Shown here: one piece after another, positions 3,188-26,945 of the stretch
How the letters are laid out: the number at the start of each line of letters is the position of its first letter
Position numbering within the stretch: the first letter of the stretch is position 1
DNA from: a virus
Taxonomy: Duplodnaviria; Heunggongvirae; Uroviricota; Caudoviricetes
Length of the DNA stretch: 27,625 nucleotides
Virus record (IMG/VR): IMGVR_UViG_2623620506_000008
Location: 1 to 27,625 of that record
Strand: one strand, 5' to 3'
Notes under the pieces: model-generated
What the model saw: the letters and a program-made list of their open reading frames with translations, nothing else
Database searches by the model: none
What the model was told of the DNA's origin: nothing
Translations under genes and position numbers: made by a program

Positions 3188-3888
3188 CCTGCGTGCCCGG
3201 TCATGCCGTCCAGCGTCGGCGGTTTATCCCAGCGCACAAATTTATTCCGCATTTTGTAGTGGGAATCCCGAGTTCCGGCCCCTTCTATACGCCACCAGTA
3301 GCCCTCTGAACCAATCGACTCTGCGCGCGCCTGGGTGAGTGCTGTCGTGGCCCTGCCGATTTCGGTGCGGGCGATCATCTTCGCGCGGCTCTCCGCCACG
3401 TCGCCGGACTCCATAATCATCCGGTAGAGCGCGTCGGGGCGTTCACCGTTGATGACGGCTTCCATTGCACGCGCCTGGATATCACGAACGCGGTCGGCAG
3501 CCTCCAGCGGCAGAGATTTAATCAGCTGCACCTGGCGGGATACGATGTCCTGAGCCACGAACCCCACCGGCGTATTGCCGACGACATCACGTAGCCCCTC
3601 AGAGATTTCCTGCGATACCGAGCGCCACTGGTTCCACTCCTCCTGCTCAACCTGCAGGAACATGCGTTTGGCTACCCGGTCGGCCCAGTCGTCAATCAGC
3701 AGTGAGTAATCCATCAGCCGGGCGCTAACCTGCTCGGCGCTGACCTCCGAACCATCGTAAGAGTCCGTTACGATCGCCCCTACCTGCTGCGCTATCTCCT
3801 GTAGGCTTTTCTGATACTGGCGCTCCGATTTGCGGCGGAGGTTCGGTTTCAGATTCAGCCTCCTCCCATTCTGCTTTGGCATCTTCAA
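3130..3888 (-). CDS. Head morphogenesis protein (Mu F / SPP1 gp7-like)
   Basis: Position right after portal; probable true start is ATG at 3882 with AAGGA RBS (the track start is TTG). Confidence 0.6.
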   Translation of the reverse strand: MKMPKQNGRRLNLKPNLRRKSERQYQKSLQEIAQQVGAIVTDSYDGSEVSAEQVSARLMDYSLLIDDWADRVAKRMFLQVEQEEWNQWRSVSQEISEGLRDVVGNTPVGFVAQDIVSRQVQLIKSLPLEAADRVRDIQARAMEAVINGERPDALYRMIMESGDVAESRAKMIARTEIGRATTALTQARAESIGSEGYWWRIEGAGTRDSHYKMRNKFVRWDKPPTLDGMTGHAGCLPNCKCWPEVQVPPPRK

Positions 3889-5203
3889 TATCCTTGTCGG
3901 TGATAGAGCCGCCGATCCCGATGATGTCGGACAGGTTGCGGAGGTCGTTCAGAGCAGCGTGCTGCGGCATACCGATATCGCGTACGGCAGTCGCCAGGGC
4001 GGTGGCCACGTTACTCGCCATCGTCGCCCGGTCGGTATCCGACATCTCCCAGAGTTTATTGAACTCAAAGGTGAAGTCTTCCGGCAGAGGCTGACCAAAC
4101 AGGGAGCGCCAGGAGATGTCCAGCAGCCAGCGGATGTGCCGGCGCAGACGTCGTTCTTGCAGCGAGTTAACGCGGCTGTAGTAGTTCTCCAGATCCCCGT
4201 CGCCGGTGCTGAAACCGGATGGGGATTGTCCGAACAGACGCACCAGCGGGATCCCAGTTGCACCGGACACCTGCTCAGCAAAGCGCAGGATGACATCGGC
4301 GATGCCAGCGAACGAGTAGCTGTGGGTCTGGAATTCGTCTGACTTATCCATGATGGTCATGCCTTCGATGGTCTGAAACTCACGGATCATGTCCATGTGC
4401 TTCATCAGCCCCTCTTCCAGCGTGCCGCCAGTGGCCAGAATCTTGCGCAGCCCGTCAATGCTGTACGTGCGCAGGTGCGCCTTGTGAATCAGCTGTGTGG
4501 TGCCGACGGTTGCGGTATCGAACGCCTGAATGCGCTCGTAGATACGCTCGACTACCGACATTCCCCAGCCGTTCTCGGTCTGCGCCTGCTGGAATGGCAG
4601 CGAGTCGCCTTCCATGCGGATAATGCGGCTGTGGTGGATCTTCCAGGGCGGGATCCCCTGCTGGTTGGTCACAACCTTGTAGAATTTCGGCTTGCCGAAC
4701 TCCGGGCCGTAATCGGTCACCAGGTCGTAATAGCTCGGGTTGACCTGCCAGCGGTCCAGGCACATCACCCCTTTAAACTGCCCCTCCTTGATGCGGTCAA
4801 GCTTCAGCGGGGTGGACATATCCTGCCCTTCCAGCAGCACCACCAGCAGCGCACCGCCGTAAAGACGAGACCACTTCAGTGTGTCATTCAGACCGTCCCA
4901 GATGGCAATGTCATCCCAGAACATCTCAAACTTACCCTTCTGTCCGGGCTCGAGCTTGGAGCTGATGTTTATGCCCGTGCGGGTCATATCATCAGCCATA
5001 GCGTCCACACCGGCGCCCACCAGAAACGATGAGCGATACGCAAATTCCAGCTGTACGCGGTTACGCGAGATGTAGCCAGGCTGGTAACCCCCACCGCTCT
5101 GGATGTTGGATGTATAGCCGCCGAGCTTGGCCGCGAAGTTGTTGTACCCGTCACGCGTCCGGACGGGCTTCTGTGCGCCGGTCTGGCGTTTCTTTCGGGA
5201 CAT
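3725..5203 (-). CDS. Portal protein
   Basis: 492-aa ORF immediately downstream of the large terminase, ATG at 5203 with GAGGGG RBS; size and position typical of portal. Confidence 0.7.
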   Translation of the reverse strand: MSRKKRQTGAQKPVRTRDGYNNFAAKLGGYTSNIQSGGGYQPGYISRNRVQLEFAYRSSFLVGAGVDAMADDMTRTGINISSKLEPGQKGKFEMFWDDIAIWDGLNDTLKWSRLYGGALLVVLLEGQDMSTPLKLDRIKEGQFKGVMCLDRWQVNPSYYDLVTDYGPEFGKPKFYKVVTNQQGIPPWKIHHSRIIRMEGDSLPFQQAQTENGWGMSVVERIYERIQAFDTATVGTTQLIHKAHLRTYSIDGLRKILATGGTLEEGLMKHMDMIREFQTIEGMTIMDKSDEFQTHSYSFAGIADVILRFAEQVSGATGIPLVRLFGQSPSGFSTGDGDLENYYSRVNSLQERRLRRHIRWLLDISWRSLFGQPLPEDFTFEFNKLWEMSDTDRATMASNVATALATAVRDIGMPQHAALNDLRNLSDIIGIGGSITDKDIEDAKAEWEEAESETEPPPQIGAPVSEKPTGDSAAGRGDRNGLLRWFGGQRRAG

Positions 5204-5215
5204 ATCCCCTCGCTG

Positions 5216-6421
5216 TTATTGTTTGCCCAGTGCGGCCCAGACGCCGAGATCGCCGACGCTTGTGATGTATCCATCCAGGGAATAACGCACGGCATCCCAC
5301 AGGTGGTTGTGCTTATCCACGACTACCGGCAGCACCTCGCCGGTCATGCGGTCGGTTTTATACGAGTACAGGCGCGCCTCATCGACCATGTGCTTACAGC
5401 GCTCATGGATGATGATCTCTTCGAACCCTTTCAGGTAGGTGATGCCGTCCTCAACGCTTCCCGGCCATTTGGTAGCGCCGTCGATGATGAAGCCCTGACG
5501 CGAAAGATAGCTGATGGTCTCCGGTCGGCTGCAGTCGCCATGGATAGGCCAGCGCCTGACCTCAGGCACCGAGTCATAGAACGACGCCATTTCGTCCAGT
5601 TCGACGCCGACGCCGTACGCTTCGTACTCGATGTAAAGCCTGGTGTCGATGATGAAGCAGCGAACCAGCGTGGAGGGATCGTTCGCAAAGCCGAAGTCAG
5701 CGCCAAAGAACAGGCGATCGGCGCTTTGCCACAGGTCGTCAGAGAATGCCTCAACCCGGTACTTGCCGGAGAAGATAACGGCCTCACTGAGCGCCTTCGG
5801 CAGCCCCAGCCAGATATGCTCGTAAGCCTCAAAGTCGATGCGTTTGCAGTATTCCATCTCATGCCTGAGCACGTCAGGAAAGAAGGCGTTATCGCAGTAG
5901 TTGACGCAGGTAATAATCGCTCCGCCATCAGGGGGGTCGGCGCGGTGCCGCTCCATCATGGCGTATGTCGGGTCGGTAGCTTCGCGCGGGTTGAACGACA
6001 CCCACACTTCGGATTTATTGGCGCGAACGGTCGGTCCGAGGATGTCCCAGCTGTCCTGCGATACGGTCTGCGCCTCCTCCACCCAGCATATTTTGATGCC
6101 GTGCATCGATTTTATGCTCTGGATGTTGTTGCGCAGGCCTTTGAAGGTAAACCGCGTGCCGTTGCTGCCCTCTATCTCGTTGTTCTTGACCTTGTAGAAG
6201 TGCGCAAGGCCAAGCGAGTGGATTTCAGCGTCCAGCAGCGCCAGCACCGAATCGTTAATAGAGTTCTGGAACTCACGAGCACACAGGATGATCATCGGCT
6301 CGATAGCGCCCAACAATACCAGCGCGCGGGCAATCTCTACCGACTTGCCGCCGCCACGGCCACCATACGTCCAGCGCCAGCGGACAGAGCCTATCGGTGC
6401 GTCGTACAGCGTCCCGAGCAC
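5216..6421 (-). CDS. terL: Terminase large subunit
   Basis: Walker A-like GGRGGGKS near the N-terminus, acidic nuclease-type C-terminal half, follows the small subunit; start appears to be GTG. Confidence 0.85.
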
Positions 6422-7301: not shown

Positions 7302-7490
7302 TTATTTCTTCAAGGCTGCCTGGATAGCATCAGCCAGCTTTTCGATCCTGTCTGTAGCTTGATCTAAGTTACTATGCATCACTCCACCAGAACCTGCCGA
7401 AGCTTTTACTATTTCAAGGGCAGCCTGTACTGCAAGTAAACGTTGTCTGTCCTTCGTCGATACTGTGTTACCAAAATAACCGTCTAACAT
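7302..7490 (-). CDS. Small hypothetical protein (moron between lysis cassette and terminase)
   Basis: 62-aa ORF, ATG at 7490 with strong AAGGGAG RBS, own terminator, GC lower than neighbours. Confidence 0.5.
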   Translation of the reverse strand: MLDGYFGNTVSTKDRQRLLAVQAALEIVKASAGSGGVMHSNLDQATDRIEKLADAIQAALKK

Positions 7491-13140: not shown

Positions 13141-14184
13141 ATGCACGGCTGGCCTTCATACGACCAATGCTTAGAAAAGCATTCTGAAGAAACCATAAGT
13201 GACTTGCACTTTGTTACCACACCACTTCGGAAATTTGAGCTGACCAGTGGCTGCGCAAACGGGGTAGCACATTGCCTATTTAATTCTATAGAAGTAAAGT
13301 ACCCAACATTATTCAGCTATTTGTTAAGGGAATTTATGAAAAGAGGAATGATAATCACGAGTAAAGTTGAGATAGATCAGGAAAATAACTCCGTTAAATT
13401 TAGACCAGAATTTAGCCAAAAGGCTCTGCGATATGGAGTGCTTTATCTTGATGAAATTTGTGTCGCGCAGACCTCTCTGTTTCAAATTGGATTGCCGGTT
13501 GATTGGCAACAACTAAAGAAGGAGAAAATAGTTAATGAGATCATTGGTAAGCCATCGCTCAGCGGAACGGTCGATTTTGCAAAAGCAGCTTTAGATGCAT
13601 ATTCCCAGTCGTTTTCTGAGTTAAACAAACGCCGAAATGAAACTTGGTGTCTCAATAAAGAATTCAAATTCCTCAATGAGCGCATTCCATTTATTGATTG
13701 TCATGGGGAAACTCTAACATTTTTGAATGCGCTTCCTGTGCCTACCGAAGACTTTCCTATAGGTGATCTTTATGAATTCCGCATAAAAAGAGATGATGAG
13801 CGCAAAGAGTTGATGAATTCAATTGATCGACTTAGGCTCAACGTTCTGAAAAGTGAAGATAAACACAATGCACTTAAAGTAGGCTTACTTGATGTTGAGA
13901 GTAATCTCATAACAATGAATCGCCTAATCAAAGAAACGAAGAGAGGTTTCTACCTTACTGATTTTTCATTGGATTACTCATCTAAAGATATGCTCGAAGT
14001 TTTCAAAGGAACATATGAAGCAACCACCACCTCAGGATTCGACAAACTTTCAGCATTAATCTTAGGTATGGGGGCATCACTAGCTTCAGGATTCAATTTT
14101 AAGGGGGGATACAGATATAAGCAGGCAAAACCAAACTCCCCTTATTTTTACGCAGCAGAGATAGTACATAAGTTTGATGTTTAA
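13141..14184 (+). CDS. Orphan low-GC protein, function unknown (moron)
   Basis: 347-aa ORF on the opposite strand to the surrounding early operon; GC about 32-43% against 55-60% flanks; alternative start ATG at 13336 with AAGGGA RBS; strong hairpin just after the stop. Confidence 0.6.
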   Translation: MHGWPSYDQCLEKHSEETISDLHFVTTPLRKFELTSGCANGVAHCLFNSIEVKYPTLFSYLLREFMKRGMIITSKVEIDQENNSVKFRPEFSQKALRYGVLYLDEICVAQTSLFQIGLPVDWQQLKKEKIVNEIIGKPSLSGTVDFAKAALDAYSQSFSELNKRRNETWCLNKEFKFLNERIPFIDCHGETLTFLNALPVPTEDFPIGDLYEFRIKRDDERKELMNSIDRLRLNVLKSEDKHNALKVGLLDVESNLITMNRLIKETKRGFYLTDFSLDYSSKDMLEVFKGTYEATTTSGFDKLSALILGMGASLASGFNFKGGYRYKQAKPNSPYFYAAEIVHKFDV

Positions 14185-17910: not shown

Positions 17911-18037
17911 GGCTATGCCCCTTTCGCCTGGTGTTTTGTACATGTATTTGTCATAATGACCTCGCAATTACGTCCCGTTTTTGCACCCGAAAGCCGTTGG
18001 TGTTCACGCACCGCGGCTTTCACCATTTCTGAGCCCG

Positions 18038-18595
18038 TCATAGCGCACCACCCAGCATCGTTGTAACCATCGCCATAATGGGCGCCACAGAATCAGGTCC
18101 GTCCAGGTAGAGCTTGGCTACGATGCTCTCGCTGATTTCCTTAAGGCGCTCGTGTCTGGGGGCTTTGAGAACGACAGCCTGAATGGCTTCTGCATCCTCT
18201 TTCAACGACCTGGCTACACGGACCGCGAAGCAATCGTTCTTAACCACGCGATCCCGGTACGCCAGCGGCAGAACCGAAATTATTACCGGCGCCATCTGCT
18301 CGACGTTTGCCCGGTAGGCCGGTGATTTCTCGTGGTTGTCCAGCCAGCGAAAAAGCTTCACGTTCCACACGTCGGGGCTTCCGCTTGTGTCGATGCCATC
18401 GAGCCCGGATTCCTCAACTGCCATCTTAATGGCCAGCGCGACAGCCACGCGGCCCTCTGCCGCCGCCCAGGCGCGAACAGCAGAACAGAGGGCGCGGTGA
18501 TCGACCGGCTGACCTTCGGCTTCGCCATGTTGATACTGGAATTTCAGGCGCTCTGACGGCGCTCTGTTATTCTGTTGAAAAGAAAGTGTTTGCAT
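18038..18595 (-). CDS. YdaT/CII-like early regulator (tentative)
   Basis: 185-aa ORF directly downstream of the Cro-like gene, ATG with AGGAG RBS; assigned by position. Confidence 0.4.
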   Translation of the reverse strand: MQTLSFQQNNRAPSERLKFQYQHGEAEGQPVDHRALCSAVRAWAAAEGRVAVALAIKMAVEESGLDGIDTSGSPDVWNVKLFRWLDNHEKSPAYRANVEQMAPVIISVLPLAYRDRVVKNDCFAVRVARSLKEDAEAIQAVVLKAPRHERLKEISESIVAKLYLDGPDSVAPIMAMVTTMLGGAL

Positions 18596-18606
18596 TTTCA
18601 GTGCTC

Positions 18607-18828
18607 CTACTTTGGTAATCCGTCAGTGGGGTTAGGGTAAGCTTCAGGATCAATCTCGTGTGGTGTCACTTGCCATTCCAGGAACTGACAAAGGGGAATG
18701 ATTCTTTTTTGTGGCACTCCGCTCGCATAGATCCACTTGCCGACAGCCTGACTGCTAATACCGAAGTGCTTCCCGATACGAGTGCGCGTTGCAGCTTTGC
18801 TTATTTTTTCTTGGGTTTGTTTGTTCAT
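18607..18828 (-). CDS. cro: Cro-like HTH regulator
   Basis: 73-aa product with HTH (TRIGKHFGISSQAVGKWI), AAGGAG RBS, divergent from the repressor gene; the track ORF extends to 19134. Confidence 0.65.
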   Translation of the reverse strand: MNKQTQEKISKAATRTRIGKHFGISSQAVGKWIYASGVPQKRIIPLCQFLEWQVTPHEIDPEAYPNPTDGLPK

Positions 18829-18842
18829 GTGCTCTCCTTCAT

Positions 18843-18925
18843 TGATGAAACAAAGCATACATGACGAAAGTTTATGTTTCAACACAACGAAAGATAATGT
18901 TTTAATGCTGAGTGAAACCTTAGGT
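18843..18925. promoter_or_regulatory. OR-like operator/promoter region between cro and repressor
   Basis: 17-mer ACGAAAGTTTATGTTTC (18864-18880) nearly identical to a 17-mer after the repressor gene; extra GAAAC half-sites; palindrome AACCTTAGGTT (18915-18925). Confidence 0.5.
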
Positions 18926-18933
18926 TGTAAAAT

Positions 18934-19353
18934 GTGCGTATGAATGAAATTACTTTCCCGACCTTCGCTAGAAGAATTCAACAAGTAATGGCTGAAAACG
19001 GCTGGTCGAAATCTGACCTCGCCAAAAAGGTCATGCTTTCGCATACGGCCGTTCAAAATTGGGCTAAGGGTAGAAATGTAGCCAGTGGAGAGCGGTTGAA
19101 GAGGCTTGCTGCTGTAACAGGAAAGCCTGAGCATTGGTTCTTTATGGAGGAAGGTCAGGAAGATGCGGCGACAAACACCTTGGGTCAGTCGGCTGTAGAA
19201 CTTGATGAGAAAGAACAGGCCCTACTTTCCCTCTTTAACCAGCTCCCTGAAGCTGAAAAGTTAAGACTCATCCTTCACACTAAAGCTGTCCTTCATGAGA
19301 TTGAGCTTCTAAAAAACGACGTATACGACATTATCAACAGCTCTAAAACATAG
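18934..19353 (+). CDS. cI: Prophage repressor, RacR/CI-like HTH, no peptidase S24 domain
   Basis: N-terminal HTH (WSKSDLAKKVMLSHTAVQNWAKGR), 139 aa, no Ser/Lys autocleavage domain; divergent from cro; first ATG at 18940. Confidence 0.7.
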   Translation: MRMNEITFPTFARRIQQVMAENGWSKSDLAKKVMLSHTAVQNWAKGRNVASGERLKRLAAVTGKPEHWFFMEEGQEDAATNTLGQSAVELDEKEQALLSLFNQLPEAEKLRLILHTKAVLHEIELLKNDVYDIINSSKT

Positions 19354-19377
19354 CTTAGGATTGCAACCTAATAATTC

Positions 19378-19402
19378 AGCGCCTACCAGGGCGCTTTTTT
19401 TT
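19378..19402 (+). terminator. Rho-independent terminator after the repressor gene
   Basis: AGCGCC-TACCAG-GGCGCT followed by TTTTTTTT. Confidence 0.6.
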
Positions 19403-19404
19403 GC

Positions 19405-19470
19405 CCTCTCATGAAACTTTTACTTTTGCGCCCTTTACATACGAAACTTTATGTTGCAGTATTATCTGCA
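19405..19470 (+). promoter_or_regulatory. OL/pL-like operator-promoter for the plus-strand early operon
   Basis: 17-mer ACGAAACTTTATGTTGC (19441-19457) matches the OR 17-mer at 15 of 17; partial copy ATGAAACTTTTAC at 19411-19423; TTTACA and TATTAT hexamers nearby. Confidence 0.45.
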
Positions 19471-19549
19471 TCGACAACACGCGCACCGTTGTCAGGTTAA
19501 AGAAACGTTCCGCCAGCCTGGCGACAAGGGCAAATGAGAGGGAATCATC

Positions 19550-19756
19550 ATGGTTCATCAGCACTATGGCACCCAGACGGTCAACCGCGGCGCAGTTCTG
19601 CCCGGCATGCTCGTTAAGCACAAAGACAGCACCTGGACGGCATCCGCCAACAAGCGCGGCAAGCTATATCTGCATCGCGGCATTGAGCGTACTTACACCA
19701 CCGAGCTGCTGGTCGAAGTTTTTCTTAATGGTGTAGGGAATGGCCTGAGCCATTAA
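19550..19756 (+). CDS. Hypothetical small protein, first gene of the early-left operon
   Basis: 68-aa ORF with GAGGG RBS; no Arg-rich N-like motif. Confidence 0.45.
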   Translation: MVHQHYGTQTVNRGAVLPGMLVKHKDSTWTASANKRGKLYLHRGIERTYTTELLVEVFLNGVGNGLSH

Positions 19757-19767
19757 CGGAGGGAGTC

Positions 19768-19929
19768 ATGCAAGAGAAAAAATGCGCTTACTGCAGCAAG
19801 CCCATCGAGCAGGGGAAGGAAGTTAAAAACAAATTGCTCTTCATCCGCGGCGCGCAGCTGGCGCGCGAACAACGCAATTACTGTTCAGTTCGTTGTGCCT
19901 CTTACGACCAGATGGCCCACGAGGCATAA
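19768..19929 (+). CDS. Small zinc-ribbon protein (not in the supplied ORF track)
   Basis: ATG at 19768 after GGAGGGAG RBS; 53-aa product MQEKKCAYCSKPIEQGKEVKNKLLFIRGAQLAREQRNYCSVRCASYDQMAHEA with CxxC...CxxxC; TAA at 19927. Confidence 0.5.
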   Translation: MQEKKCAYCSKPIEQGKEVKNKLLFIRGAQLAREQRNYCSVRCASYDQMAHEA

Positions 19930-20068
19930 CGTAAAAGCCGCGCAAGGCGGCCCGTACGTCCGGTGACACCGACCAAAGTTCCACCGGAATTTTTACCAAA
20001 ACCAAAAACACACCCAATGGGCGCTATCTCTGGCCCGGGGATCTTACATCCAAAAATGAGGATCTGAC

Positions 20069-23000
20069 ATGGAATTTTTCTATGTGGTCAAAGCCACTCA
20101 GAAATCCGGTAAGAAAGATGCAGTGGTCTGGTTCACTGCCAAAACTCAATCTCGCGCCGCGCTGATGATGGACGTTGCGCTGGAAGACGCAGAAATTGAA
20201 AGTGGCCGCGGTAAAGACTACGCCAAGCCTGTACGCACCGATTTCCCAGTGTACGACGACCTCCCGGAAGAAGGTACCGTGGATTTCACCTGGTGCGAAC
20301 GCTATGAGCTGGCCGACGACCAGCGCACCTGGAACGTGATCCCCGGTGCCGCGGATCAGGGTGAAACCACCCTCGCCCCAGTGACCACCAGTGATGAAGA
20401 ACTGCCTGCCGCGCCGGTAACCTCTACTCATACCGCAGGCACCGGCAAAACGTCCCTGCTTGAAAATCGCACCCCGGCGGTTCGCTTCGCCGTCCATCTA
20501 TTGGGTGATAAATACCTTTCGGCGATCAGCCAGGAGCAGCACATCGTTGCCAACGAACTGGCGACCGATGAGGGGAATGCTTACTTCCAGAACCTGATGC
20601 AGGCCAAAAATGACGTTGGTGATATTGGCGATCTGAGCCTGCATACCGAGTGGAAACTGGTGCAGGCCGTTAAAGACGTTTTTCCTCAGGACAAAGTGCA
20701 CGAATCCGCGTCGCTGGCCGCCTTCATGTCGGGCTGGATTAACGCCGATGATCGCAACCAACTGGTTGATGACTGGAAGAGTGGAAAGCTCCCGGCCAAG
20801 AATGAGCCTGAACATTGGTATGAAGACGACCTGCAGATCTGCAAAGGCGATGATGAGTTTACTCGTTATCCGGTCTGCAAATTGCCATTCCGCCAACAGC
20901 TTCTCGCCCAACTGACGGTGGACGAACTGCGCCATCATGTCACCCGCGATGAACATACGGAACTGCATGCGCTGGAGAGTGATACCGACAACAGCTACGT
21001 CCAGACTCTTCTGCTTGCTGCTGAAAGCTGCCCAGAGTTGAAGGAATTCGATACCAAGGCCCTGTGGAGCTATACCAACGCGGTCCGAAAGGTATTCAGC
21101 CAGGAAAAACGTCACGAGTTGGCTCTGGTACTTCGCTTCACCAGAATCTGGGTGACTACTGAGGCCAGTGACCACGACATCCTGACCAGTGAATGGGCAG
21201 CCGGCCATCGCATTGATGATGTAGGTATTCAAAAAGACCAGAAATCCGAAGGGCCACAACCTTCAGAACCCTATAAGCGCGCAGTGCCGCAGAACATGGC
21301 GAACCTGAGCATCGAGATTGCGATCGCCATGCTATATCCAGACGCGGTACCCGGGAAAATCAACCGTGCGCAGCTGATGGCTGCCAAAGAACTGGCTGAC
21401 AAAAAAGACGAGACTCACTCCAGGGCGCTCAAGGTGCTCGGCAAAACCTCTGATATTACTGACTACAACGCTGACAGTATTTTTGGCATTGCCCGTGCAC
21501 TCCCCTGGAGTGGAGATATAACCACGGTCGAACTGCGTAAGCAGGTTCGTGAATGGTTCACCGCGAACGGTATCTATGAAAATGGCGAGCGTTCAAAGGG
21601 TTATCCAGAGTGGGATGAAGATCCTCGCGCAAGCCGCCAGGTGATGGTGGAAGAGCCAGTAGCTACCAGCCAGCCGCAGGTCGCGAACCTCGGCGGCGGC
21701 ATGTTCTCCATCGATGGCCTGCTGGGTGGAAATACTAACCCGGTCATCAATATCCCCTCACATGAAGTAGAAAAACCGGAAACCGTAGCGGAGACCACCA
21801 GCGATGTGCAGATGGAAGCGACTCAGCCAGAGAAAGACAAAACTGTTGATGCGGTACCAACAGGCGAAAGCGTTGATGCAGCTGATCCGCAAACAGATAC
21901 CCTGAACCCGGCTGAGGTGCTGGCCGCCGCGGCGCCGGAGCTGGCGAACGCCACCACGCAGGAATCGACCACCGAAGCGCCAGACGCGAAAGCGAGCGCG
22001 CCGGAAGAGCAATCCTCACAACCGGTCCCGGAATACCCGGCGTACTTTGAACCTGGCCGTTATGAAGGCCTGCCGAACGACGTTTATCACGCAGCAAACG
22101 GGATCAGCTCCACTCAGGTGAAAGATGCCCGGGTCAGCCTGATGTACTTCAACGCCCGCCACGTCGCCAAAACCATCCCGCGGGCCCCTTCCAAGGTGCT
22201 GGACATGGGTAATCTTGTTCACGCCCTGGCGCTTCAGCCCGAAAACCTCGAGGCAGAGTTCAGCGTAGAGCCGGAGATCCCGGAAGGTGCTTTCACCACC
22301 ACCGCCACCCTGCGCGAGTTCATCGACTCGCACAACGCCAGCCTGCCGGCGCTGCTGAGTGCTGACGATATCAAAGCGCTGCTTGAAGAGCACAACGCCA
22401 CCCTGCCCGCGCAGCTGACGCTGGGCGCCTGCATGGAGGAAACGGCGCAGAGTTACATGTCGCTGCCGGAAGAGTTCCAGCGTATTGAAGTGATTCAGAG
22501 AAAGACCGCGGCAGCCATGAAAGCCTGCATCAAAGAGTATAACGCCACCCTGCCCGTGCCGGTTAAAACCAGCGGCAGCCGCGATGCGCTGCTTGAACAG
22601 CTGGCAATCATCAACCCTGACCTGGTGGCGCAGGAAGCCCAGAAACCGGCACCACTGAAAGTGTCCGGCAGCAAAGCGGAAATGATCCAGGCGGTTAAGT
22701 CGGTCAAGCCTGACGCTGTATTCGCCGACGAGCTGCTGGACGCCTGGCGCGAAAATCCGGGCGACAAGATTCTGGTGACGCGCCAGCAGCTGGCGACCGC
22801 CCAGGCCATCCAGGCTGCCCTGCTGGCACACCCGACCGCCGGCATGCTGCTGACGCACCCGAGCCGCGCCGTTGAGGTGAGCTATTTCGGCTTTGACGAC
22901 GAAACCGGGCTGGAAGTGCGCGTGCGCCCAGACCTGGAACTGGACCTCAACAACCTGCGTATCGGTGCCGACCTGAAAACCATCAGCATGTGGAACGTTA

Positions 23001-23326
23001 AGCAGGAGAGCCTGCGCTCCCGGCTGCACCGGGAAATCATCGACCGTGATTATCACCTGAGTGCGGCCATGTATTGCGAGACCGCGGCGCTGGACCAGTT
23101 CTTCTGGATCTTCGTCAACAAAGACGAAAACTACCACTGGATCGCCATTATTGAGGCATCCGCAGAACTGCTGGAGCTGGGCATGCTCGAGTACCGCAAA
23201 ACCATGCGCGCTATCGCTACCGGATTCGACACCGGCAACTGGCCGGCGCCTATCACCGCTGATTACACCGACGAACTGAACGACTTCGACCTGCGCCGCC
23301 TTGAAGCGCTGCGTACTCAGGCATAA
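20069..23326 (+). CDS. recE: RecE-like exonuclease VIII, PD-(D/E)xK nuclease C-terminal domain with long N-terminal region
   Basis: 1085 aa; C-terminal region has nuclease-like D...E-L-D...D-L-K motifs (RPDLELDLNNLRIGADLKTIS); sits directly upstream of an annealase gene as in Rac recE-recT; N-terminus recalls RecE (FPVYDDLPEEGTVDFTWCERY). Confidence 0.65.
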   Translation: MEFFYVVKATQKSGKKDAVVWFTAKTQSRAALMMDVALEDAEIESGRGKDYAKPVRTDFPVYDDLPEEGTVDFTWCERYELADDQRTWNVIPGAADQGETTLAPVTTSDEELPAAPVTSTHTAGTGKTSLLENRTPAVRFAVHLLGDKYLSAISQEQHIVANELATDEGNAYFQNLMQAKNDVGDIGDLSLHTEWKLVQAVKDVFPQDKVHESASLAAFMSGWINADDRNQLVDDWKSGKLPAKNEPEHWYEDDLQICKGDDEFTRYPVCKLPFRQQLLAQLTVDELRHHVTRDEHTELHALESDTDNSYVQTLLLAAESCPELKEFDTKALWSYTNAVRKVFSQEKRHELALVLRFTRIWVTTEASDHDILTSEWAAGHRIDDVGIQKDQKSEGPQPSEPYKRAVPQNMANLSIEIAIAMLYPDAVPGKINRAQLMAAKELADKKDETHSRALKVLGKTSDITDYNADSIFGIARALPWSGDITTVELRKQVREWFTANGIYENGERSKGYPEWDEDPRASRQVMVEEPVATSQPQVANLGGGMFSIDGLLGGNTNPVINIPSHEVEKPETVAETTSDVQMEATQPEKDKTVDAVPTGESVDAADPQTDTLNPAEVLAAAAPELANATTQESTTEAPDAKASAPEEQSSQPVPEYPAYFEPGRYEGLPNDVYHAANGISSTQVKDARVSLMYFNARHVAKTIPRAPSKVLDMGNLVHALALQPENLEAEFSVEPEIPEGAFTTTATLREFIDSHNASLPALLSADDIKALLEEHNATLPAQLTLGACMEETAQSYMSLPEEFQRIEVIQRKTAAAMKACIKEYNATLPVPVKTSGSRDALLEQLAIINPDLVAQEAQKPAPLKVSGSKAEMIQAVKSVKPDAVFADELLDAWRENPGDKILVTRQQLATAQAIQAALLAHPTAGMLLTHPSRAVEVSYFGFDDETGLEVRVRPDLELDLNNLRIGADLKTISMWNVKQESLRSRLHREIIDRDYHLSAAMYCETAALDQFFWIFVNKDENYHWIAIIEASAELLELGMLEYRKTMRAIATGFDTGNWPAPITADYTDELNDFDLRRLEALRTQA

Positions 23327-23331
23327 GGGGA

Positions 23332-24450
23332 ATGACCATGGAAAACATGAACATCGTAACTGCAGAGCAACAGGCTCCGAACACAATTTCTGCAACCAAC
23401 TCCATTTTCAATGTCCAGGCGCTGACCCAACTCCAGGCGGTTGCTGGCTTAATGGCACAGGCGGCCGTGACAGTTCCCGAACACCTACGGGGCAACCCGG
23501 CTGACTGCATGGCGATTATCATGCAGGCCATGCAGTGGGGCATGAATCCTTACGCCGTAGCGCAGAAAACGCACCTGGTAAACGGCGTGCTGGGTTACGA
23601 GGCGCAGCTGGTTAATGCGGTGATCTCCAGCTCAAATGCCATCGTAGGCCGCTTCCATTATGAATATGAAGGCGACTGGTCGAAGTGCGCCCGGATACGC
23701 GAGGAGGTTGTTAAAAAGCCTGCCAAGGGTGGCGGGACCTATGAGAAAAAAGAAATTGTCCGCGGCTGGACCAGTGATGATGAGCAGGGACTCTCGGTTC
23801 GTGTGGGCGCAGTTCTCCGCGGTGAAAGTGAAATTACATGGGGCGAGCCGGTTTATCTGTCCAGCGTAATTACGCGCAACTCCCCTCTCTGGGTATCGAA
23901 CCCAAAACAGCAGATCGCCTATCTGGCGCTCAAATACTGGGCGCGCCTCTACTGCCCTGCAGTGGTGCTGGGCGTGTATACCCCTGATGAAGTTGAGCAA
24001 AGAACCGAAAAAGAGATTAACCCGGCACCAGCGCGCGTAAGCCTGTCTGATATTTCCGGTGACAACGTAACAACCACTCACAGCGCGCAGGAGTCGGCAG
24101 CCAACATCGATGCTATGGCCGATGAATTCCGGGATCGCATTGAGGCAGCCCAGGACGTGGACAATGCAAAAGCGCTGCGTGCCGACATCGAAACCGCTAA
24201 GGCAACGCTTGGAACTGCCCTGTACACCGAACTGAAGAATAAGGCCGTGAAACGCTATTACCACGTGGACGCGCGTAACAATGTCGAGGCAGCAATCAAC
24301 TCCCTGCCCCAGCCTGGCGAGCCGGATGCCGCCGAACAGTTCGCAGAAGCCGAGCGCGTGCTGGCATCTTCAAAGCGTCACCTGGGCGACGAACTGCACG
24401 ATCAGTTCAGCATCACCCTGGCGGATATGAAACCGGAATACGTGGCCTAA
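23332..24450 (+). CDS. recT: Single-strand annealing protein, RecT/Redbeta family
   Basis: Follows the exonuclease; segments resemble recalled lambda Bet (PLWVSNPKQQIAYLALKYWARLY versus PWQSHPKRMLRHKAMIQCARLAF); probable start ATG at 23338. Confidence 0.6.
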   Translation: MTMENMNIVTAEQQAPNTISATNSIFNVQALTQLQAVAGLMAQAAVTVPEHLRGNPADCMAIIMQAMQWGMNPYAVAQKTHLVNGVLGYEAQLVNAVISSSNAIVGRFHYEYEGDWSKCARIREEVVKKPAKGGGTYEKKEIVRGWTSDDEQGLSVRVGAVLRGESEITWGEPVYLSSVITRNSPLWVSNPKQQIAYLALKYWARLYCPAVVLGVYTPDEVEQRTEKEINPAPARVSLSDISGDNVTTTHSAQESAANIDAMADEFRDRIEAAQDVDNAKALRADIETAKATLGTALYTELKNKAVKRYYHVDARNNVEAAINSLPQPGEPDAAEQFAEAERVLASSKRHLGDELHDQFSITLADMKPEYVA

Positions 24451-24484: not shown

Positions 24485-25318
24485 ATGTTAAGAGAAAAAC
24501 CTGTTAAGCACCCGGCGATCCGTTACCACGGCGGTAAATTCCGCTTGGCATCCTGGATTATCCCTCAGATGCCTGAGCACGTCTGCTACGTGGAACCGTT
24601 CGGCGGCGCAGCTGGCGTATTGCTGCAAAAGCCTCGCAGCTATGCGGAAGTTTATAACGACTTGGATGGTGAGGTGGTGAACCTGTTCCGGGTGCTGCGT
24701 GACGCAGAGATGAACCAGCGCCTGCAACATGCGTGCATGCTCACGCCTTATTCTCGTGATGAATTTTGCGCAGCGCATGAAGTCACCGAAGAACCGATTG
24801 AGCGAGCAAGACGCATGGTTGTCCGCGCCAGCATGGGCTTTGGTTCAGCAGCAGGAATTGGCGGTAATTCCGGCTTCCGTAGCGACAGCAAAAGGAAATA
24901 TGCGACAGCTGCGCATCTGTGGGAGCGTTATCCGGAAAATCTGGCAGCAGTATGTCAGCGCCTTCAGGGGGTCATTATCGAAAACAAAGATGCCCTGTCA
25001 GTAATGCGAGCCCATGACGCTGAAACAACCCTGCACTACATCGACCCGCCTTATGTACCCGAAACCCGCGTGCATGGTAACCGTTATTACAGCCACGAAA
25101 TGACTTTAGAGGGGCATGAGCAATTGCTCGCAGTAGCCAGAACGATGACCGGAATGGTGATGATCAGCGGCTACGACTCGGATGTGTACAACGACATGCT
25201 GGTCGGATGGAAGAAAACGAAAAAATCTTCACGCATTAGCGCCGGTAGGGGTACGAAGGTCCGCACTGAATGTATGTGGCTTAACCCAGCATCACAACAG
25301 GCGGAGCGTGCAGCATGA
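24485..25318 (+). CDS. DNA N6-adenine methyltransferase, Dam-like (orphan)
   Basis: YHGGK near the N-terminus, EPFGGAAGV, catalytic DPPY (HYIDPPYVPE); no restriction endonuclease gene adjacent. Confidence 0.85.
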   Translation: MLREKPVKHPAIRYHGGKFRLASWIIPQMPEHVCYVEPFGGAAGVLLQKPRSYAEVYNDLDGEVVNLFRVLRDAEMNQRLQHACMLTPYSRDEFCAAHEVTEEPIERARRMVVRASMGFGSAAGIGGNSGFRSDSKRKYATAAHLWERYPENLAAVCQRLQGVIIENKDALSVMRAHDAETTLHYIDPPYVPETRVHGNRYYSHEMTLEGHEQLLAVARTMTGMVMISGYDSDVYNDMLVGWKKTKKSSRISAGRGTKVRTECMWLNPASQQAERAA

Positions 25319-25567: not shown

Positions 25568-25891
25568 ATGACAAATTTCCGACAGCTTTATAATGAGTTG
25601 TCGGAAGCCGGAGGTAATATGGCCAAGCTTCTTAACCTGCAGGAATGGGCTAAAGAAACCTATTCAACACCGCCCTCTCTTTCTACCCTTCGCCGCTGGG
25701 CCAGGGAGGGGCGCATCTTTCCTGCACCAGCGCTTCATGGCAAAGAATATAAGGTTCAACCGGATGCTATCTATGTGGATCCGAGCAAAAAGAACCTGCG
25801 ACCGAAACCTAAACACATGACGCTGCCCGCCGGCGGCACCCTACTGGAGAGACTGACTCATGGCGAAAAGGCCAGTACGTTACGACGCTAA
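25568..25891 (+). CDS. xis: Excisionase, lambda Xis-like
   Basis: LNLQEWAKETYSTPPSLSTLRRWAREGRIFPAPALHGKEYKV resembles recalled lambda Xis; preferred start ATG at 25619 with GGAGG RBS; overlaps the int start. Confidence 0.75.
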   Translation: MTNFRQLYNELSEAGGNMAKLLNLQEWAKETYSTPPSLSTLRRWAREGRIFPAPALHGKEYKVQPDAIYVDPSKKNLRPKPKHMTLPAGGTLLERLTHGEKASTLRR

Positions 25892-26945
25892 TCTGCCCCG
25901 TAACCTGACCTATCGTAAAAGAGACAGGCTTTATAGCTGGCGCAACCCGACAACCGGCCAGGAAATATCTCTTGGCCGGATCGACAGGAAGGATGCCATC
26001 TCTCAGGCCATAGAGGCCAACAACTACATCGAACAGAATTACCTGCCCTCAGCTCTGCTTGACCGCATAAAGGAGACCCCTACCTTTACGGTTAAGAGCT
26101 GGCTTGAACGGTACGAGGTGATCCTTGAGCGAAGAGAGTTGAAGCCAAACACCATGAAGGTCAGGCGAAATCAGATCGCAACCATTAAGGATGAATTCGG
26201 CAAGATGCCGTTATCCTCAGTTAGCACGAAGGACATATCAAACTTTCTTGAGTCCTATATTTTATGCGACAAGAAAAGCATGGCCGCCGGCCTACGGTCC
26301 GTGCTGCTGGACATTTTCAGGGAGGCTATTGTCGAAGGGCATATAGAAAGGAACCCAGCGGATCCTACGCGAACGCCGACACCAAAGGTAAAACGGGAGC
26401 GTTTGCTGCTCGAGCATTTTATAGTTATCCGCGCGGCAGCTGCTTCCCACTCGGAGTGGTTGCCGAACGCCTGCAATCTTGCTCTGGTTACAGGACAGCG
26501 CCGCGAGGACATTTCGCTTTTTCGGTTCAGTGACGTTAAGGATGGTAGGCTATTTGTTACGCAGGAGAAGACGGGACACAAACTGGCGCTGCCGCTTGAT
26601 TTGAAATTGGAGGCCGTGGATCTTGTGCTTGAAGAGGTAATCGAACGCTGCAGAGTAAATAATCCCTCAGACTTTATGCTTTTCTCCCCAGTCAGGCGTG
26701 GGGGCAGAAAGCCGGGCCCCTTAACTCCAGATGGTTTAACCCAGGCTTTTGCGGATGTGCGAGATGCAACGGCGTTAAAATTTGGCCCGAACCCACCGCC
26801 CTACCATGAGATCAGAAGCCTGGCCAGCAGACTATATGAAAAGGAACGTGGAGAGGAATTCACGCAACGTTTGCTCGGCCACAAAAATTTAACAATGACA
26901 AAAAAATACCTGGACGCACGCGGTGCAGAGTATGTTATGGTTTAG
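25860..26945 (+). CDS. int: Tyrosine integrase, lambda Int-like
   Basis: Extensive similarity to recalled lambda Int (LALVTGQRREDI, HEIRSLASRLYEKE, LLGHK, Tyr near the C-terminus). Confidence 0.9.
   Translation: MAKRPVRYDANLPRNLTYRKRDRLYSWRNPTTGQEISLGRIDRKDAISQAIEANNYIEQNYLPSALLDRIKETPTFTVKSWLERYEVILERRELKPNTMKVRRNQIATIKDEFGKMPLSSVSTKDISNFLESYILCDKKSMAAGLRSVLLDIFREAIVEGHIERNPADPTRTPTPKVKRERLLLEHFIVIRAAAASHSEWLPNACNLALVTGQRREDISLFRFSDVKDGRLFVTQEKTGHKLALPLDLKLEAVDLVLEEVIERCRVNNPSDFMLFSPVRRGGRKPGPLTPDGLTQAFADVRDATALKFGPNPPPYHEIRSLASRLYEKERGEEFTQRLLGHKNLTMTKKYLDARGAEYVMV

What the first reader, a model, noticed from the sequence alone, without database searches (positions are those of the whole stretch)
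19550..19929. Two small genes at the head of the early-left operon, one missing from the ORF track
Right after the OL-like region are a 68-aa ORF and a 53-aa zinc-ribbon ORF (19768-19929, strong GGAGGGAG RBS). This is the position where lambdoid phages carry N, kil, sieB or host-takeover genes. A GC hairpin (GCCGC-GCAAG-GCGGC, 19937-19951) follows.
Basis: seen in the sequence. Interest (0 to 1): 0.4.

Follow-up and report, generated by a model that had tools for sequence, protein, structure and literature searches.

The report
Kil and YdaE genes, plus antisense sRNA
The two small ORFs are real, conserved prophage genes of already catalogued families: a KilR-type cell-division inhibitor and a YdaE zinc-finger protein that always travels with the RecE/RecT recombinase genes. 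The GC hairpin after them is most likely the terminator of a small IsrB-like RNA transcribed from the opposite strand, so the finding is largely ordinary.

Summary
The 68-aa ORF (19550-19756) is a KilR-family cell-division inhibitor (PHROG 294 E 6e-35; 39% identical to E. coli K-12 Rac KilR). The 53-aa ORF (19768-19929) is a YdaE-family protein (NCBIfam NF041288, 97.8 bits vs cutoff 35), modelled as a four-Cys TRASH/eL24-like zinc finger.

The locus is the head of the early-left operon of a Rac/Gifsy-like prophage: repressor, terminator, operator-like site, kil, ydaE, recE, recT, methylase, xis, int.

Two refinements:
- The hairpin (19937-19951) is the terminal stem-loop of an IsrB-family sRNA on the minus strand (about 20034 to 19932). 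Support comes from covariation, strong strand asymmetry of folding, a conserved -10 box and exact synteny with experimentally mapped Salmonella IsrB.
- YdaE is linked to RecE (48/49 species-level loci) and to this RNA (48/49). It is not tightly linked to Kil (15/49). In other prophages the same Kil family precedes Gam-Bet-Exo, so YdaE sits in the "Gam slot".

YdaE's function is still unknown, and that is the only open question here. Overall these are new members of known kinds, of low to moderate interest.

The parts
18859..18904 (.). Two tandem 23-nt operator-like repeats in the repressor/cro (YdaS-like) intergenic region (context)
   Evidence: Repeat family D1; core ACGAAANNTNATGTT at 18864 and 18887. 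They overlap the best sigma-70-like promoter for the minus-strand cro-like gene, TTGAAA-17-TATGCT.
18934..19353 (+). HTH_3 (DicA/RacR-like) repressor gene, same strand as kil (context)
   Evidence: Pfam HTH_3 E 2.7e-10; NCBIfam DicA-like 53.8 bits, below cutoff.
19378..19402 (+). Intrinsic terminator of the repressor gene (7-bp stem followed by T8)
   Evidence: Terminator scan.
19436..19458 (+).
   Evidence: Third member of repeat family D1 and third and last exact match of the core motif in the window. It lies immediately upstream of, and adjoins, the candidate -10.
19460..19465 (+). Candidate -10 hexamer (TATTAT) of the kil-operon promoter. The -35 is poor (TACATA with an 18-nt spacer, or TTTACA with a 20-nt spacer). 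Inferred, weak.
   Evidence: Relaxed hexamer scan. The strict scan found no promoter here.
19502..19535 (+). Conserved kil-leader element (GAAACGTTCCGCCAGCCTGGCGACAAGGGCAAA) shared with mEp237 and AR_0119; function unknown
   Evidence: Alignment A6. About 100 nt of leader present in those relatives is absent from the window.
19550..19756 (+). kil: 68-aa KilR-family cell-division inhibitor
   Evidence: PHROG 294 E 6e-35; NF008465 67 bits; 39% identity to K-12 KilR, E 1e-14; homologues carry PF27398. The model has an all-beta SH3/KOW-like core plus a flexible C-tail.
19758..19765 (+). Shine-Dalgarno GGAGGGAG for ydaE, 2 nt after the kil stop codon
   Evidence: Read directly from the sequence.
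19768..19929 (+). ydaE: 53-aa YdaE-family four-Cys zinc-finger protein with an invariant C-terminal DQMAHE helix
19932..20034 (-). IsrB-family sRNA gene (about 100 nt, three hairpins), convergent with and antisense to the ydaE-recE spacer. The 5' end is inferred.
   Evidence: Rfam RF01386 24.9 bits, below GA 35, with the full model aligned. Bona fide isrB occupies the same position in Gifsy-2. MFE -46.7 kcal/mol, z -4.0, vs -29.7, z -1.4, for the plus strand. Custom model R1 finds it in 48/49 species-level YdaE loci.
19937..19951 (-).
   Evidence: Aligned to the terminal helix of the isrB model. Covariation: CG 34/GC 6 and GC 30/AU 7/GU 3; 97% of cells paired vs 38-48% when slid; 0/500 shuffles.
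19959..19988 (-). Second sRNA hairpin with the invariant loop CUUUGGUCGGU
   Evidence: Invariant in 71 distinct spacer sequences, partly by ascertainment; fold.
20041..20046 (-). Conserved -10-like box (TAAGAT here; TAGAAT or TAATAT in relatives) for the sRNA. Its -35 region overlaps the recE SD and start codon.
   Evidence: Alignment A3 and spacer listing; hexamer scan.
20069..23326 (+). recE (1085 aa; Exonuc_VIII N-terminus plus PDDEXK C-terminus)
   Evidence: Pfam; 80-83% DNA identity to phage recE genes.
23332..24450 (+). recT
   Evidence: Pfam RecT E 9.8e-39.

Best explanation
Window 19400-20070 is the head of the repressor-controlled early-left operon of a Rac/Gifsy-like lambdoid prophage. 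The host is probably an enterobacterium of the Leclercia/Silvania/Enterobacter group.

Regulation. In the lysogen, the DicA/RacR-like repressor (18934-19353) is inferred to bind one operator-like site (19436-19458) lying over the promoter region upstream of kil. It is also inferred to bind two tandem copies at the divergent repressor/cro promoters.

On derepression, one transcript carries kil, ydaE, recE, recT, a Dam-type methylase, DUF4060, xis and int.

- Kil (68 aa) has a small SH3/KOW-like beta-barrel with a flexible C-terminal tail. By homology to Rac KilR it blocks FtsZ ring assembly (and possibly MreB), arresting division.
- YdaE (53 aa) is translated from a strong SD 2 nt after the kil stop. 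It is a four-Cys TRASH/eL24-type zinc finger with an invariant C-terminal helix (CAxYDQMAHE). It is a fixed component of the RecE/RecT module rather than a Kil partner, and it sits where lambda-Red modules carry Gam. My best guess is that it is a small accessory or regulatory factor of RecET recombination that binds a protein or nucleic-acid partner. This is inference only.
- The GC hairpin after ydaE is not a plus-strand signal. It is the Rho-independent terminator of an IsrB-family sRNA of about 100 nt. That sRNA is transcribed convergently from a promoter overlapping the recE start region, so it is fully antisense to the ydaE-recE junction. By analogy with Gifsy IsrB, which is expressed in lysogens, it most plausibly dampens leaky recET (and downstream xis/int) expression. 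It may also act in trans through its invariant loop.
For: Gene identities. The same order kilR-ydaE-(racC)-recE-recT is annotated in K-12 Rac, mEp237 and E. coli AR_0119. In Rac, silencing racR derepresses kilR, ydaE, racC, recE and recT together (bioRxiv 10.64898/2026.09.06.749655).

Operator motif: the three copies all lie in the immunity region and adjoin candidate promoters.

Linkage: RecE lies downstream in 78/78 viral and 48/49 species-level YdaE loci, while Kil lies upstream in 32/80 and 15/49. Kil followed by Gam-Bet-Exo is seen in E. coli O157 and ST131-type prophages.

sRNA:
- Rfam isrB match on the minus strand.
- True isrB (99 bits) at the syntenic site of Gifsy-2.
- Covariation and G.U pairs that work only on the minus strand.
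- Folding asymmetry of z -4.0 vs -1.4.
- Model R1 hits in 48/49 loci, always on the minus strand between ydaE and recE.
- Salmonella IsrB was mapped by primer extension and northern blot as an 88/94-nt RNA antiparallel to sbcA and STM1010 (PMC2330248). It is expressed from the Gifsy-2 prophage in lysogens (PMC7067206) and is ProQ-associated (PMC5391140).
Against: - Nothing here is experimental for this prophage.
- The NCBIfam KilR model scores below its curated cutoff (67 vs 92). The Kil C-terminal tail, which carries the toxicity in K-12 KilR, is not conserved in sequence and is a few residues shorter.
- No canonical sigma-70 promoter was found upstream of kil. The candidate has a poor -35 or a 20-nt spacer, so the operon might instead be fed by read-through or need an activator.
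- The operator motif was defined from the same three copies that were then counted.
- The Rfam isrB score is below the gathering threshold (24.9 vs 35). The U-tract is short (UUUU). Model R1 partly measures plain sequence conservation of the spacer. Helix 1 of the sRNA's middle hairpin (hairpin 2) is invariant and so gives no evidence for or against pairing. Part of the loop and 3' arm were fixed by the search pattern.
- K-12 Rac has YdaE and RecE without the RNA, so YdaE does not strictly need it.
- The YdaE function proposed is inferred from position only. Distant YdaE-domain proteins occur in phage contexts with no RecE nearby.
Confidence: 0.8

Rival explanations
1. The hairpin is a plus-strand mRNA feature. 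It could be an intrinsic terminator or attenuator separating kil-ydaE from recET, a 3' stabiliser, or a nut/boxB-like antitermination site.
For: A hairpin forms on either strand, and it lies 8 nt after the ydaE stop codon. Lambdoid early-left operons often carry nut sites. The outer stems are perfectly complementary on both strands.
Against: - On the plus strand the stem is followed by CCGTACG with no T-run.
- Plus-strand folding of the spacer is unremarkable: z -1.4, with 19/200 shuffles folding as well, against z -4.0 for the minus strand.
- Many conserved pairs are G.U on the minus strand, which would be A.C mismatches on the plus strand.
- The homologous Salmonella element was mapped as a minus-sense RNA (PMC2330248).
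- The family scans of the named ORFs in this part of the window turned up no N-like protein. The loop GCAAG is not a GNRA-like boxB pentaloop (own knowledge).
Confidence: 0.08
2. YdaE is a dedicated partner of Kil, either an antitoxin-like modulator or a co-effector, and the two genes form a two-gene host-takeover cassette.
For: The genes are adjacent and tightly packed here (11-nt gap) and overlap in K-12 Rac. The gap is constant where both are present. Rare single ORFs fuse KilR and YdaE domains: P0060 and P0266.
Against: YdaE occurs without Kil in 48/80 viral and 34/49 species-level loci. Gifsy-2 has YdaE but no Kil. The same Kil family occurs without YdaE, followed by Gam-Bet-Exo. Two loci were inspected directly; kil-only DNA matches in about 2,200 further E. 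coli genomes fit the same picture, but what lies downstream of kil was not checked there. The fusions are single-contig observations and could be stop-codon loss or assembly error.
Confidence: 0.1
3. YdaE is a YacG-like inhibitor of DNA gyrase, as some automatic annotations say.
Against: - The similarity covers only the generic zinc-finger core (YacG residues 7-36 of 65), and YdaE has a 14-residue beta-hairpin insertion.
- YdaE ends 10 residues after the last Cys and has nothing aligned to YacG's C-terminal half. The role of that half in gyrase inhibition is stated from my own knowledge.
- The Pfam scan lists no YacG hit at E <= 0.1.
- eL24 and TRASH domains match better than YacG.
- The strict linkage is to RecE, not to anything gyrase-related.
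Confidence: 0.1
4. YdaE is an RNA-binding translational regulator, Com-like or eL24-like. It would act on the structured ydaE-recE junction or on the IsrB-like RNA to gate recE translation.
For: YdaE, the structured spacer and recE are almost never separated. The closest folds are rRNA-binding eL24 zinc fingers. The sRNA promoter overlaps the recE translation start.
Confidence: 0.15
5. One or both ORFs are chance open frames and not genes.
For: Both are short, and the list contains many overlapping spurious ORFs.
Against: Both have full-length matches to curated families, dozens to hundreds of homologues with conserved length and start, good SD sequences and confident predicted folds.
Confidence: 0.01

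Closest known systems
KilR (ydaD) of E. coli K-12 Rac prophage: FtsZ/MreB inhibitor (Pfam PF27398, NCBIfam NF008465, PHROG 294)
   Same: Homologous over the full length (39% identity). Same position as first gene upstream of ydaE and recET on the repressor's strand. Same predicted architecture of a folded beta core plus flexible C-terminal tail (PMC12482147).
   Different: 68 vs 73 aa, with a C-terminal tail unrelated in sequence. It belongs to the 67-68-aa subfamily that PGAP names 'phage encoded cell division inhibitor protein' and scores below the NCBIfam KilR cutoff. The leader is short, with no KilS/DicF-like sRNA and no sieB/ydaF/ydaG between the repressor and kil.
YdaE of E. coli K-12 Rac prophage ('zinc-binding protein'; NCBIfam NF041288, Pfam PF27493, PHROG 1520)
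   Same: 48% identity, with the four Cys and the C-terminal DQMAHE invariant. It lies immediately after kil and upstream of recE.
   Different: The first knuckle is CxxC here and CxxxxC in Rac. Here ydaE is followed directly by the IsrB-like spacer and recE; in Rac racC intervenes and the RNA is absent.
IsrB-1/IsrB-2 sRNAs of Salmonella Gifsy-2/Gifsy-1 (Rfam RF01386)
   Same: Same location and orientation: antiparallel, in the spacer immediately upstream of the recE/sbcA start. Same three-hairpin layout, an identical middle-hairpin loop CUUUGGUCGGU, a GC-rich terminator and a conserved -10 box.
   Different: The window scores only 24.9 bits against the Rfam model (GA 35). The 5' hairpin and linker differ and are about 10 nt longer. 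The upstream neighbour is ydaE rather than STM1010.
Lambda Kil and the lambda early-left gene order kil-gam-bet-exo
   Same: Analogous position and presumably an analogous role, with division arrest during lytic growth. KilR-family genes actually replace lambda kil ahead of Gam-Bet-Exo in many E. coli prophages.
   Different: No sequence relationship to the lambda Kil Pfam family was detected (0 Pfam hits). The recombination module here is YdaE-RecE-RecT instead of Gam-Bet-Exo. In the published comparison, lambda Kil does not disturb MreB whereas KilR does (PMC12482147).
YacG (DNA gyrase inhibitor) and the TRASH/eL24/MYM-FCS zinc fingers
   Same: Same CxxC...[FY]CSxxC zinc-knuckle pattern and treble-clef-like fold.
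   Different: Only the metal-binding core matches. YdaE has an inserted beta-hairpin and its own invariant C-terminal helix, and it lacks YacG's C-terminal half.

Membership tests
KilR family (PF27398 / NF008465 / PHROG 294) | Significant full-length sequence similarity to KilR-family models | tested here: met
   PHROG 294 E 6e-35 over residues 1-67. BLASTP to K-12 KilR 39% identity, E 1e-14. All 120 listed homologues carry precomputed PF27398. Caveat: NCBIfam NF008465 scores 67.3 bits, below its subfamily cutoff of 92.
KilR family (PF27398 / NF008465 / PHROG 294) | Small folded core followed by an unstructured C-terminal tail that mediates toxicity | tested here: inconclusive
   The AF2 model has a beta core at residues 8-59 with pLDDT >90 and lower confidence over the last ~9 residues. 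The tail sequence differs from K-12 KilR, and its function cannot be judged in silico.
KilR family (PF27398 / NF008465 / PHROG 294) | Location in the early-left operon upstream of the recombination genes | tested here: met
KilR family (PF27398 / NF008465 / PHROG 294) | Inhibits FtsZ ring formation; toxicity suppressed by excess FtsZ | not testable with these tools
   Known only for K-12 KilR (PMC12482147, PMC5793797).
YdaE family (NF041288 / PF27493 / PHROG 1520) | Score above the curated family cutoff | tested here: met
   NF041288 97.8 bits vs cutoff 35, covering profile positions 1-50 of 50. PHROG 1520 E 2.9e-29.
YdaE family (NF041288 / PF27493 / PHROG 1520) | Four conserved Cys (Cx2-4C ... 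CxxxC) and the C-terminal DQMAHE motif | tested here: met
   C6, C9, C39, C43, D47, Q48, M49 and E52 are invariant in 24 sequences.
YdaE family (NF041288 / PF27493 / PHROG 1520) | Binds zinc | not testable with these tools
   K-12 YdaE is annotated 'zinc-binding protein' in RefSeq. Here it is only inferred from the Cys pattern and the TRASH-like model.
IsrB sRNA (Rfam RF01386) | Reaches Rfam's gathering score | tested here: not met
   24.9 bits vs GA 35; E 0.0085 on 201 nt and 0.076 on 1.8 kb. E. coli AR_0119 scores 30.4 bits and Gifsy-2 scores 99.3 bits.
IsrB sRNA (Rfam RF01386) | Position and orientation: antiparallel, in the spacer immediately upstream of recE/sbcA | tested here: met
   Window 19932-20028(-) vs recE at 20069(+). 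Gifsy-2 L004 3274-3361(-) vs recE at 3399(+). PMC2330248 Table 1.
IsrB sRNA (Rfam RF01386) | Conserved secondary structure with a terminator hairpin and U-tail on the RNA strand | tested here: met
   97.1% of cells paired vs 38-48% when slid. 37 doubly changed cells vs 9.7 in shuffles (0/500). Terminator pairs CG/GC and GC/AU/GU. Strand asymmetry. The middle helix is invariant and so uninformative.
IsrB sRNA (Rfam RF01386) | Actually transcribed as a small RNA of about 90-100 nt | not testable with these tools
   Shown only for Salmonella (PMC2330248, PMC7067206).
YacG / DUF329 gyrase inhibitors | Match to the YacG family model and presence of the C-terminal region beyond the zinc finger | tested here: not met
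Lambda Kil family | Sequence similarity to lambda Kil | tested here: not met
   Pfam-A scan of the 68-aa protein returned 0 families at E <= 0.1.
Lambda-type N/nut antitermination site (boxB hairpin) | A plus-strand boxB hairpin together with an N-like protein at the operon head | tested here: not met
   The two genes at the operon head are Kil and YdaE, and no N-like protein turned up in the family scans of the named ORFs. The structure and its G.U pairs favour the minus strand.

The most novel reading that the evidence does not exclude
YdaE, the IsrB-like antisense RNA and RecE/RecT form one co-inherited functional unit. In it YdaE would be the RecET counterpart of lambda Gam: a tiny zinc-finger factor that neutralises a host DNA enzyme such as RecBCD or gyrase, or that licenses RecE. 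The convergent sRNA would keep the module silent in the lysogen. That would assign a first function to a widespread orphan protein and reveal an unrecognised third component of the RecET system used for recombineering.
Probability: 0.2. Interest if true: 0.55.

Novelty: new member of a known kind. Interest (0 to 1): 0.27.

Why it matters
For annotation, it settles that a sub-60-aa ORF missed by the ORF track is a real gene (ydaE). It also settles that the neighbouring ORF is a KilR-type division inhibitor, and that an unannotated IsrB-like sRNA gene lies on the opposite strand just upstream of recE.

Biologically, the useful point is the linkage pattern. YdaE is virtually never separated from RecE and almost always carries the antisense RNA between them, whereas Kil is an interchangeable neighbour that also precedes Gam-Bet-Exo. 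YdaE is still uncharacterised in the literature searched here, and RecET is a workhorse of recombineering. The 'Gam-slot' hypothesis is therefore cheap to test and could matter practically. Otherwise the locus is a standard Rac/Gifsy-type early-left region.

Tried and rejected
- Pfam-A on both peptides gave no hit for Kil and only sub-threshold DUF7576 and L24e hits for YdaE. The local Pfam copy predates PF27398 and PF27493, which appear only as precomputed labels.
- PDB sequence search with the YdaE profile found nothing significant; the best hits were eL24 and MYM at E 0.1-1.
- Foldseek against viral structures returned only uncharacterised small zinc proteins.
- The PADLOC defence library gave no hit for Kil and one marginal sub-threshold PtuB hit for YdaE (E 0.0068, 14 bits).
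- A trans target for the invariant sRNA loop inside the prophage was not found: 4 near-matches vs 6.3 expected by chance.
- The N-terminal domain of the YdaE-domain proteins of about 200 aa has no Pfam family, and their neighbourhoods showed no RecE.
- The strict sigma-70 scan found no promoter upstream of kil. The relaxed scan gives only a weak candidate.
- A weak Rfam suhB/mmgR hit at 19336-19409 (E 0.75) is just the repressor terminator and was dismissed.
- The 34-aa plus-strand ORF 19963-20067 inside the spacer was rejected as coding, because relatives differ there by 1-2-nt indels.
It was redone with A5.
- The host species was not pinned down. The closest YdaE relatives are in Silvania and Leclercia, at 92%.
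Full report
**Observation**

The region reads as the first-stage reader described it.
- An ATG ORF of 68 aa lies at 19550-19756.
- Its TAA stop is followed 2 nt later by GGAGGGAG (19758-19765).
- An ATG ORF of 53 aa lies at 19768-19929.
- The perfect 5-bp GC hairpin GCCGC-GCAAG-GCGGC lies at 19937-19951.

**Context**

The window is a lambdoid prophage.
- Portal, replication O and P, a YdaT-like gene (18038-18595) and a YdaS/Cro-like gene (18607-18828) are on the minus strand.
- A 139-aa HTH_3 DicA/RacR-like repressor (18934-19353) is on the plus strand, followed by a strong intrinsic terminator at 19378-19402.
- Then come the two small ORFs, RecE (20069-23326), RecT (23332-24450), a Dam-class methyltransferase, DUF4060, excisionase and integrase (25860-26945).
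- A host DUF2511 gene lies at the right edge.

This mirrors E. coli K-12 Rac, which has racR ... kilR-ydaE-racC-recE-recT ... xisR-intR. The same arrangement is found in phage mEp237 and an E. coli AR_0119 prophage. The best E. coli DNA match over the kil-ydaE segment is about 84% and the best phage match over the wider 18000-23400 stretch is about 83%. The closest YdaE proteins are in Silvania and Leclercia. The host is therefore probably an enterobacterium outside E. coli.

**The 68-aa ORF is a Kil**

- It matches PHROG 294, 'Kil protein for bacterial septation inhibition', at E 6e-35 over its whole length.
- It scores 67 bits against NCBIfam NF008465, 'FtsZ inhibitor protein', below that model's strict cutoff of 92.
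- It is 39% identical to K-12 KilR (E 1e-14) and 85-88% identical to the annotated Kil of mEp237 and AR_0119.
- More than 120 cluster representatives, all carrying the precomputed Pfam label PF27398 (KilR), occur across Enterobacteriaceae. Many are named 'cell division inhibitor protein'.
- It has no similarity to the lambda Kil Pfam family.

This matches the published picture of KilR: a small protein whose disordered C-terminal ~12 residues mediate inhibition of FtsZ and, at higher dose, MreB (PMC12482147). KilR is normally silenced, with NusG/Rho termination contributing (PMC5793797). The tail sequence here differs from K-12 KilR, so equivalence of activity is inferred and not shown.

**The 53-aa ORF is a YdaE**

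- It passes NCBI's curated YdaE model (NF041288, 97.8 bits vs cutoff 35) and matches PHROG 1520 end to end.
- It is 48% identical to K-12 YdaE, which RefSeq annotates as a 'zinc-binding protein'.
- C6, C9, C39 and C43 and the C-terminal DQM.HE are invariant.
- The model (pLDDT 86) is a zinc knuckle, a beta-hairpin (19-27/30-38) and a helix (41-52) that starts at the second Cys pair.
- A profile comparison with authentic E. coli YacG gives 83% probability, but only over the zinc knuckles. The Pfam scan lists no YacG hit.

So the 'YacG-family gyrase inhibitor' label that some sources attach is not supported as family membership.

The papers that mention ydaE give no function. They show only co-derepression with the rest of the Rac early genes when racR is silenced and Tn-seq fitness effects.

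**What YdaE travels with**

| Sample | RecE downstream | Conserved RNA motif | Kil upstream |
|---|---|---|---|
| 80 YdaE-anchored viral contigs | 78/78 with enough flank, usually 140-144 nt away | 76/78 | 32/80 |
| 49 species-level genome loci | 48/49 (the exception is truncated) | see model R1 below | 15/49 |

- Gifsy-2 has YdaE (STM1010.1n) but no Kil.
- Conversely, the same 68-aa Kil family is followed by Gam-Bet-Exo in E. coli O157:H7 and other prophages. Kil-only DNA matches occur in about 2,200 E. coli genomes.

Kil is therefore an interchangeable neighbour, while YdaE belongs to the RecE/RecT module and occupies the slot that Gam holds in Red modules. This argues against YdaE being Kil's obligate partner. 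Two rare fused KilR-YdaE ORFs exist but are anecdotal. A profile search of 1.84 billion representatives found only 96 relatives. They include phage proteins of about 190-215 aa with a C-terminal YdaE domain and an unknown N-terminal domain, in contexts without RecE.

**The hairpin**

Rfam's isrB model (RF01386) aligns end to end to the minus strand of 19932-20028. The score is 24.9 bits, below the gathering score of 35. Bona fide isrB (99 bits) sits at the same place and orientation in Gifsy-2, in the spacer just upstream of the RecE-like gene. The AR_0119 prophage scores 30 bits there.

A search for the conserved loop motif recovered more than 120 viral contigs and 71 distinct spacer sequences.

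In a 40-sequence alignment the terminator helix covaries:
- Pair types are CG 34/GC 6 and GC 30/AU 7/GU 3.
- 97% of cells pair, against 38-48% when the partner is slid.
- Doubly changed cells number 37, against 9.7 in shuffles (0/500).
- Many pairs are G.U on the minus strand, which would be A.C mismatches on the plus strand.

The minus strand of the window folds into three hairpins at -46.7 kcal/mol (z -4.0, 0/200 shuffles). The plus strand reaches only -29.7 kcal/mol (z -1.4). A -10-like box (TAAGAT here, TAGAAT in relatives) is conserved about 7 nt upstream of the inferred start, and its -35 region overlaps the recE SD and ATG.

A covariance model built from the alignment finds the element in 48/49 species-level YdaE loci, always on the minus strand between ydaE (or STM1010) and recE. 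It occurs once in the window and not in K-12 Rac or in Kil-Gam-Bet-Exo prophages.

Salmonella IsrB was mapped experimentally:
- It is an 88/94-nt RNA antiparallel to both neighbours and is starvation-induced (PMC2330248).
- It is expressed from the prophage in lysogens (PMC7067206).
- It is ProQ-associated, with only a presumed role in lysogeny maintenance (PMC5391140).

Caveats. The Rfam score is sub-threshold. The middle helix is invariant and therefore uninformative. Part of it was fixed by the search pattern. The custom model also captures plain sequence conservation.

**Regulation**

A 23-nt motif occurs twice in tandem in the repressor/cro intergenic region (18859-18904) and once upstream of kil (19436-19458). 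Its core, ACGAAANNTNATGTT, is found nowhere else in the window. The upstream copy adjoins the only plausible -10 (TATTAT, 19460-19465), whose -35 is poor. This fits a shared-operator, PL/OL-like arrangement, but it is inference.

Only 19502-19535 of the leader is shared with relatives that have different immunity regions. About 100 nt of their leader is missing here.

**Verdict**

Both genes belong to already catalogued families, so the finding is ordinary. Two refinements add value: an unannotated IsrB-like antisense sRNA explains the hairpin, and YdaE's near-obligate linkage to RecET and that RNA yields a testable 'Gam-slot' hypothesis for an orphan protein.

Noticed in passing
window 18859-18904 and 19436-19458: A 23-nt operator-like motif (core ACGAAANNTNATGTT) occurs twice in tandem between the repressor and cro-like genes and once upstream of kil, and nowhere else in the window. 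These are probably the repressor's operators.
   Followed up: partly
window 19502-19535: A 34-nt kil-leader element containing the palindrome CGCCAGCCTGGCG is conserved in mEp237 and E. coli AR_0119. Those relatives have about 100 nt more leader between it and the kil ATG, which is missing here.
   Followed up: partly
L002 (E. coli K-12 Rac) 7411-7466 minus strand: The annotated sRNA KilS upstream of kilR matches the Rfam DicF model at 39 bits (GA 48), and the kilR leader weakly matches STnc100. No equivalent was found upstream of kil in the window.
   Followed up: no
L206 and L207 (E. coli O157:H7 Rafaela_II and KBN10P04869), 3501-5547: The same 68-aa Kil family is followed by Gam-Bet-Exo instead of YdaE-RecE-RecT. 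This shows a clean module swap immediately downstream of kil.
   Followed up: partly
L210 1740-2114 (Logan SRR28527046 contig); also protein P0266: Single ORFs carry both KilR and YdaE domains. In L210 kil lacks its stop codon and runs in frame into ydaE. This is either a real fusion or a mutation or assembly artefact.
   Followed up: partly
proteins P0072, P0076, P0085, P0094, P0104; loci L208 and L209 at 5001-5612: Phage proteins of about 190-215 aa have a C-terminal YdaE domain and an N-terminal domain with no Pfam match. They are encoded in early regions (YopX, T5orf172, Dam, NinG nearby) without a RecE neighbour.
   Followed up: partly
window 24485-25318 (+): A Dam-class (D12) N6-adenine methyltransferase lies inside the early-left operon, between recT and DUF4060-xis-int. 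It looks like an orphan or anti-restriction methylase (PADLOC MTase_II E 4e-58).
   Followed up: no
window 13141-14184 (+): A 347-aa DUF6236 ORF lies on the plus strand in a stretch where most of the long ORFs read on the minus strand. It may be a moron or accessory gene. It has no PADLOC hit.
   Followed up: no
window 18934-19353 (+): The repressor is only 139 aa, with an HTH_3 domain and no S24 peptidase domain. Induction is therefore unlikely to be by RecA-stimulated self-cleavage. The related O157/KBN10P prophages carry a 229-aa HTH/S24-type repressor instead.
   Followed up: no
L004 (Gifsy-2) 2793-2951 and 3036-3272: Gifsy-2 STM1010.1n, annotated as hypothetical, is a YdaE-family protein. 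An unrelated 78-aa gene (STM1010) is inserted between it and isrB. The same variant occurs in Citrobacter loci L237 and L248.
   Followed up: partly
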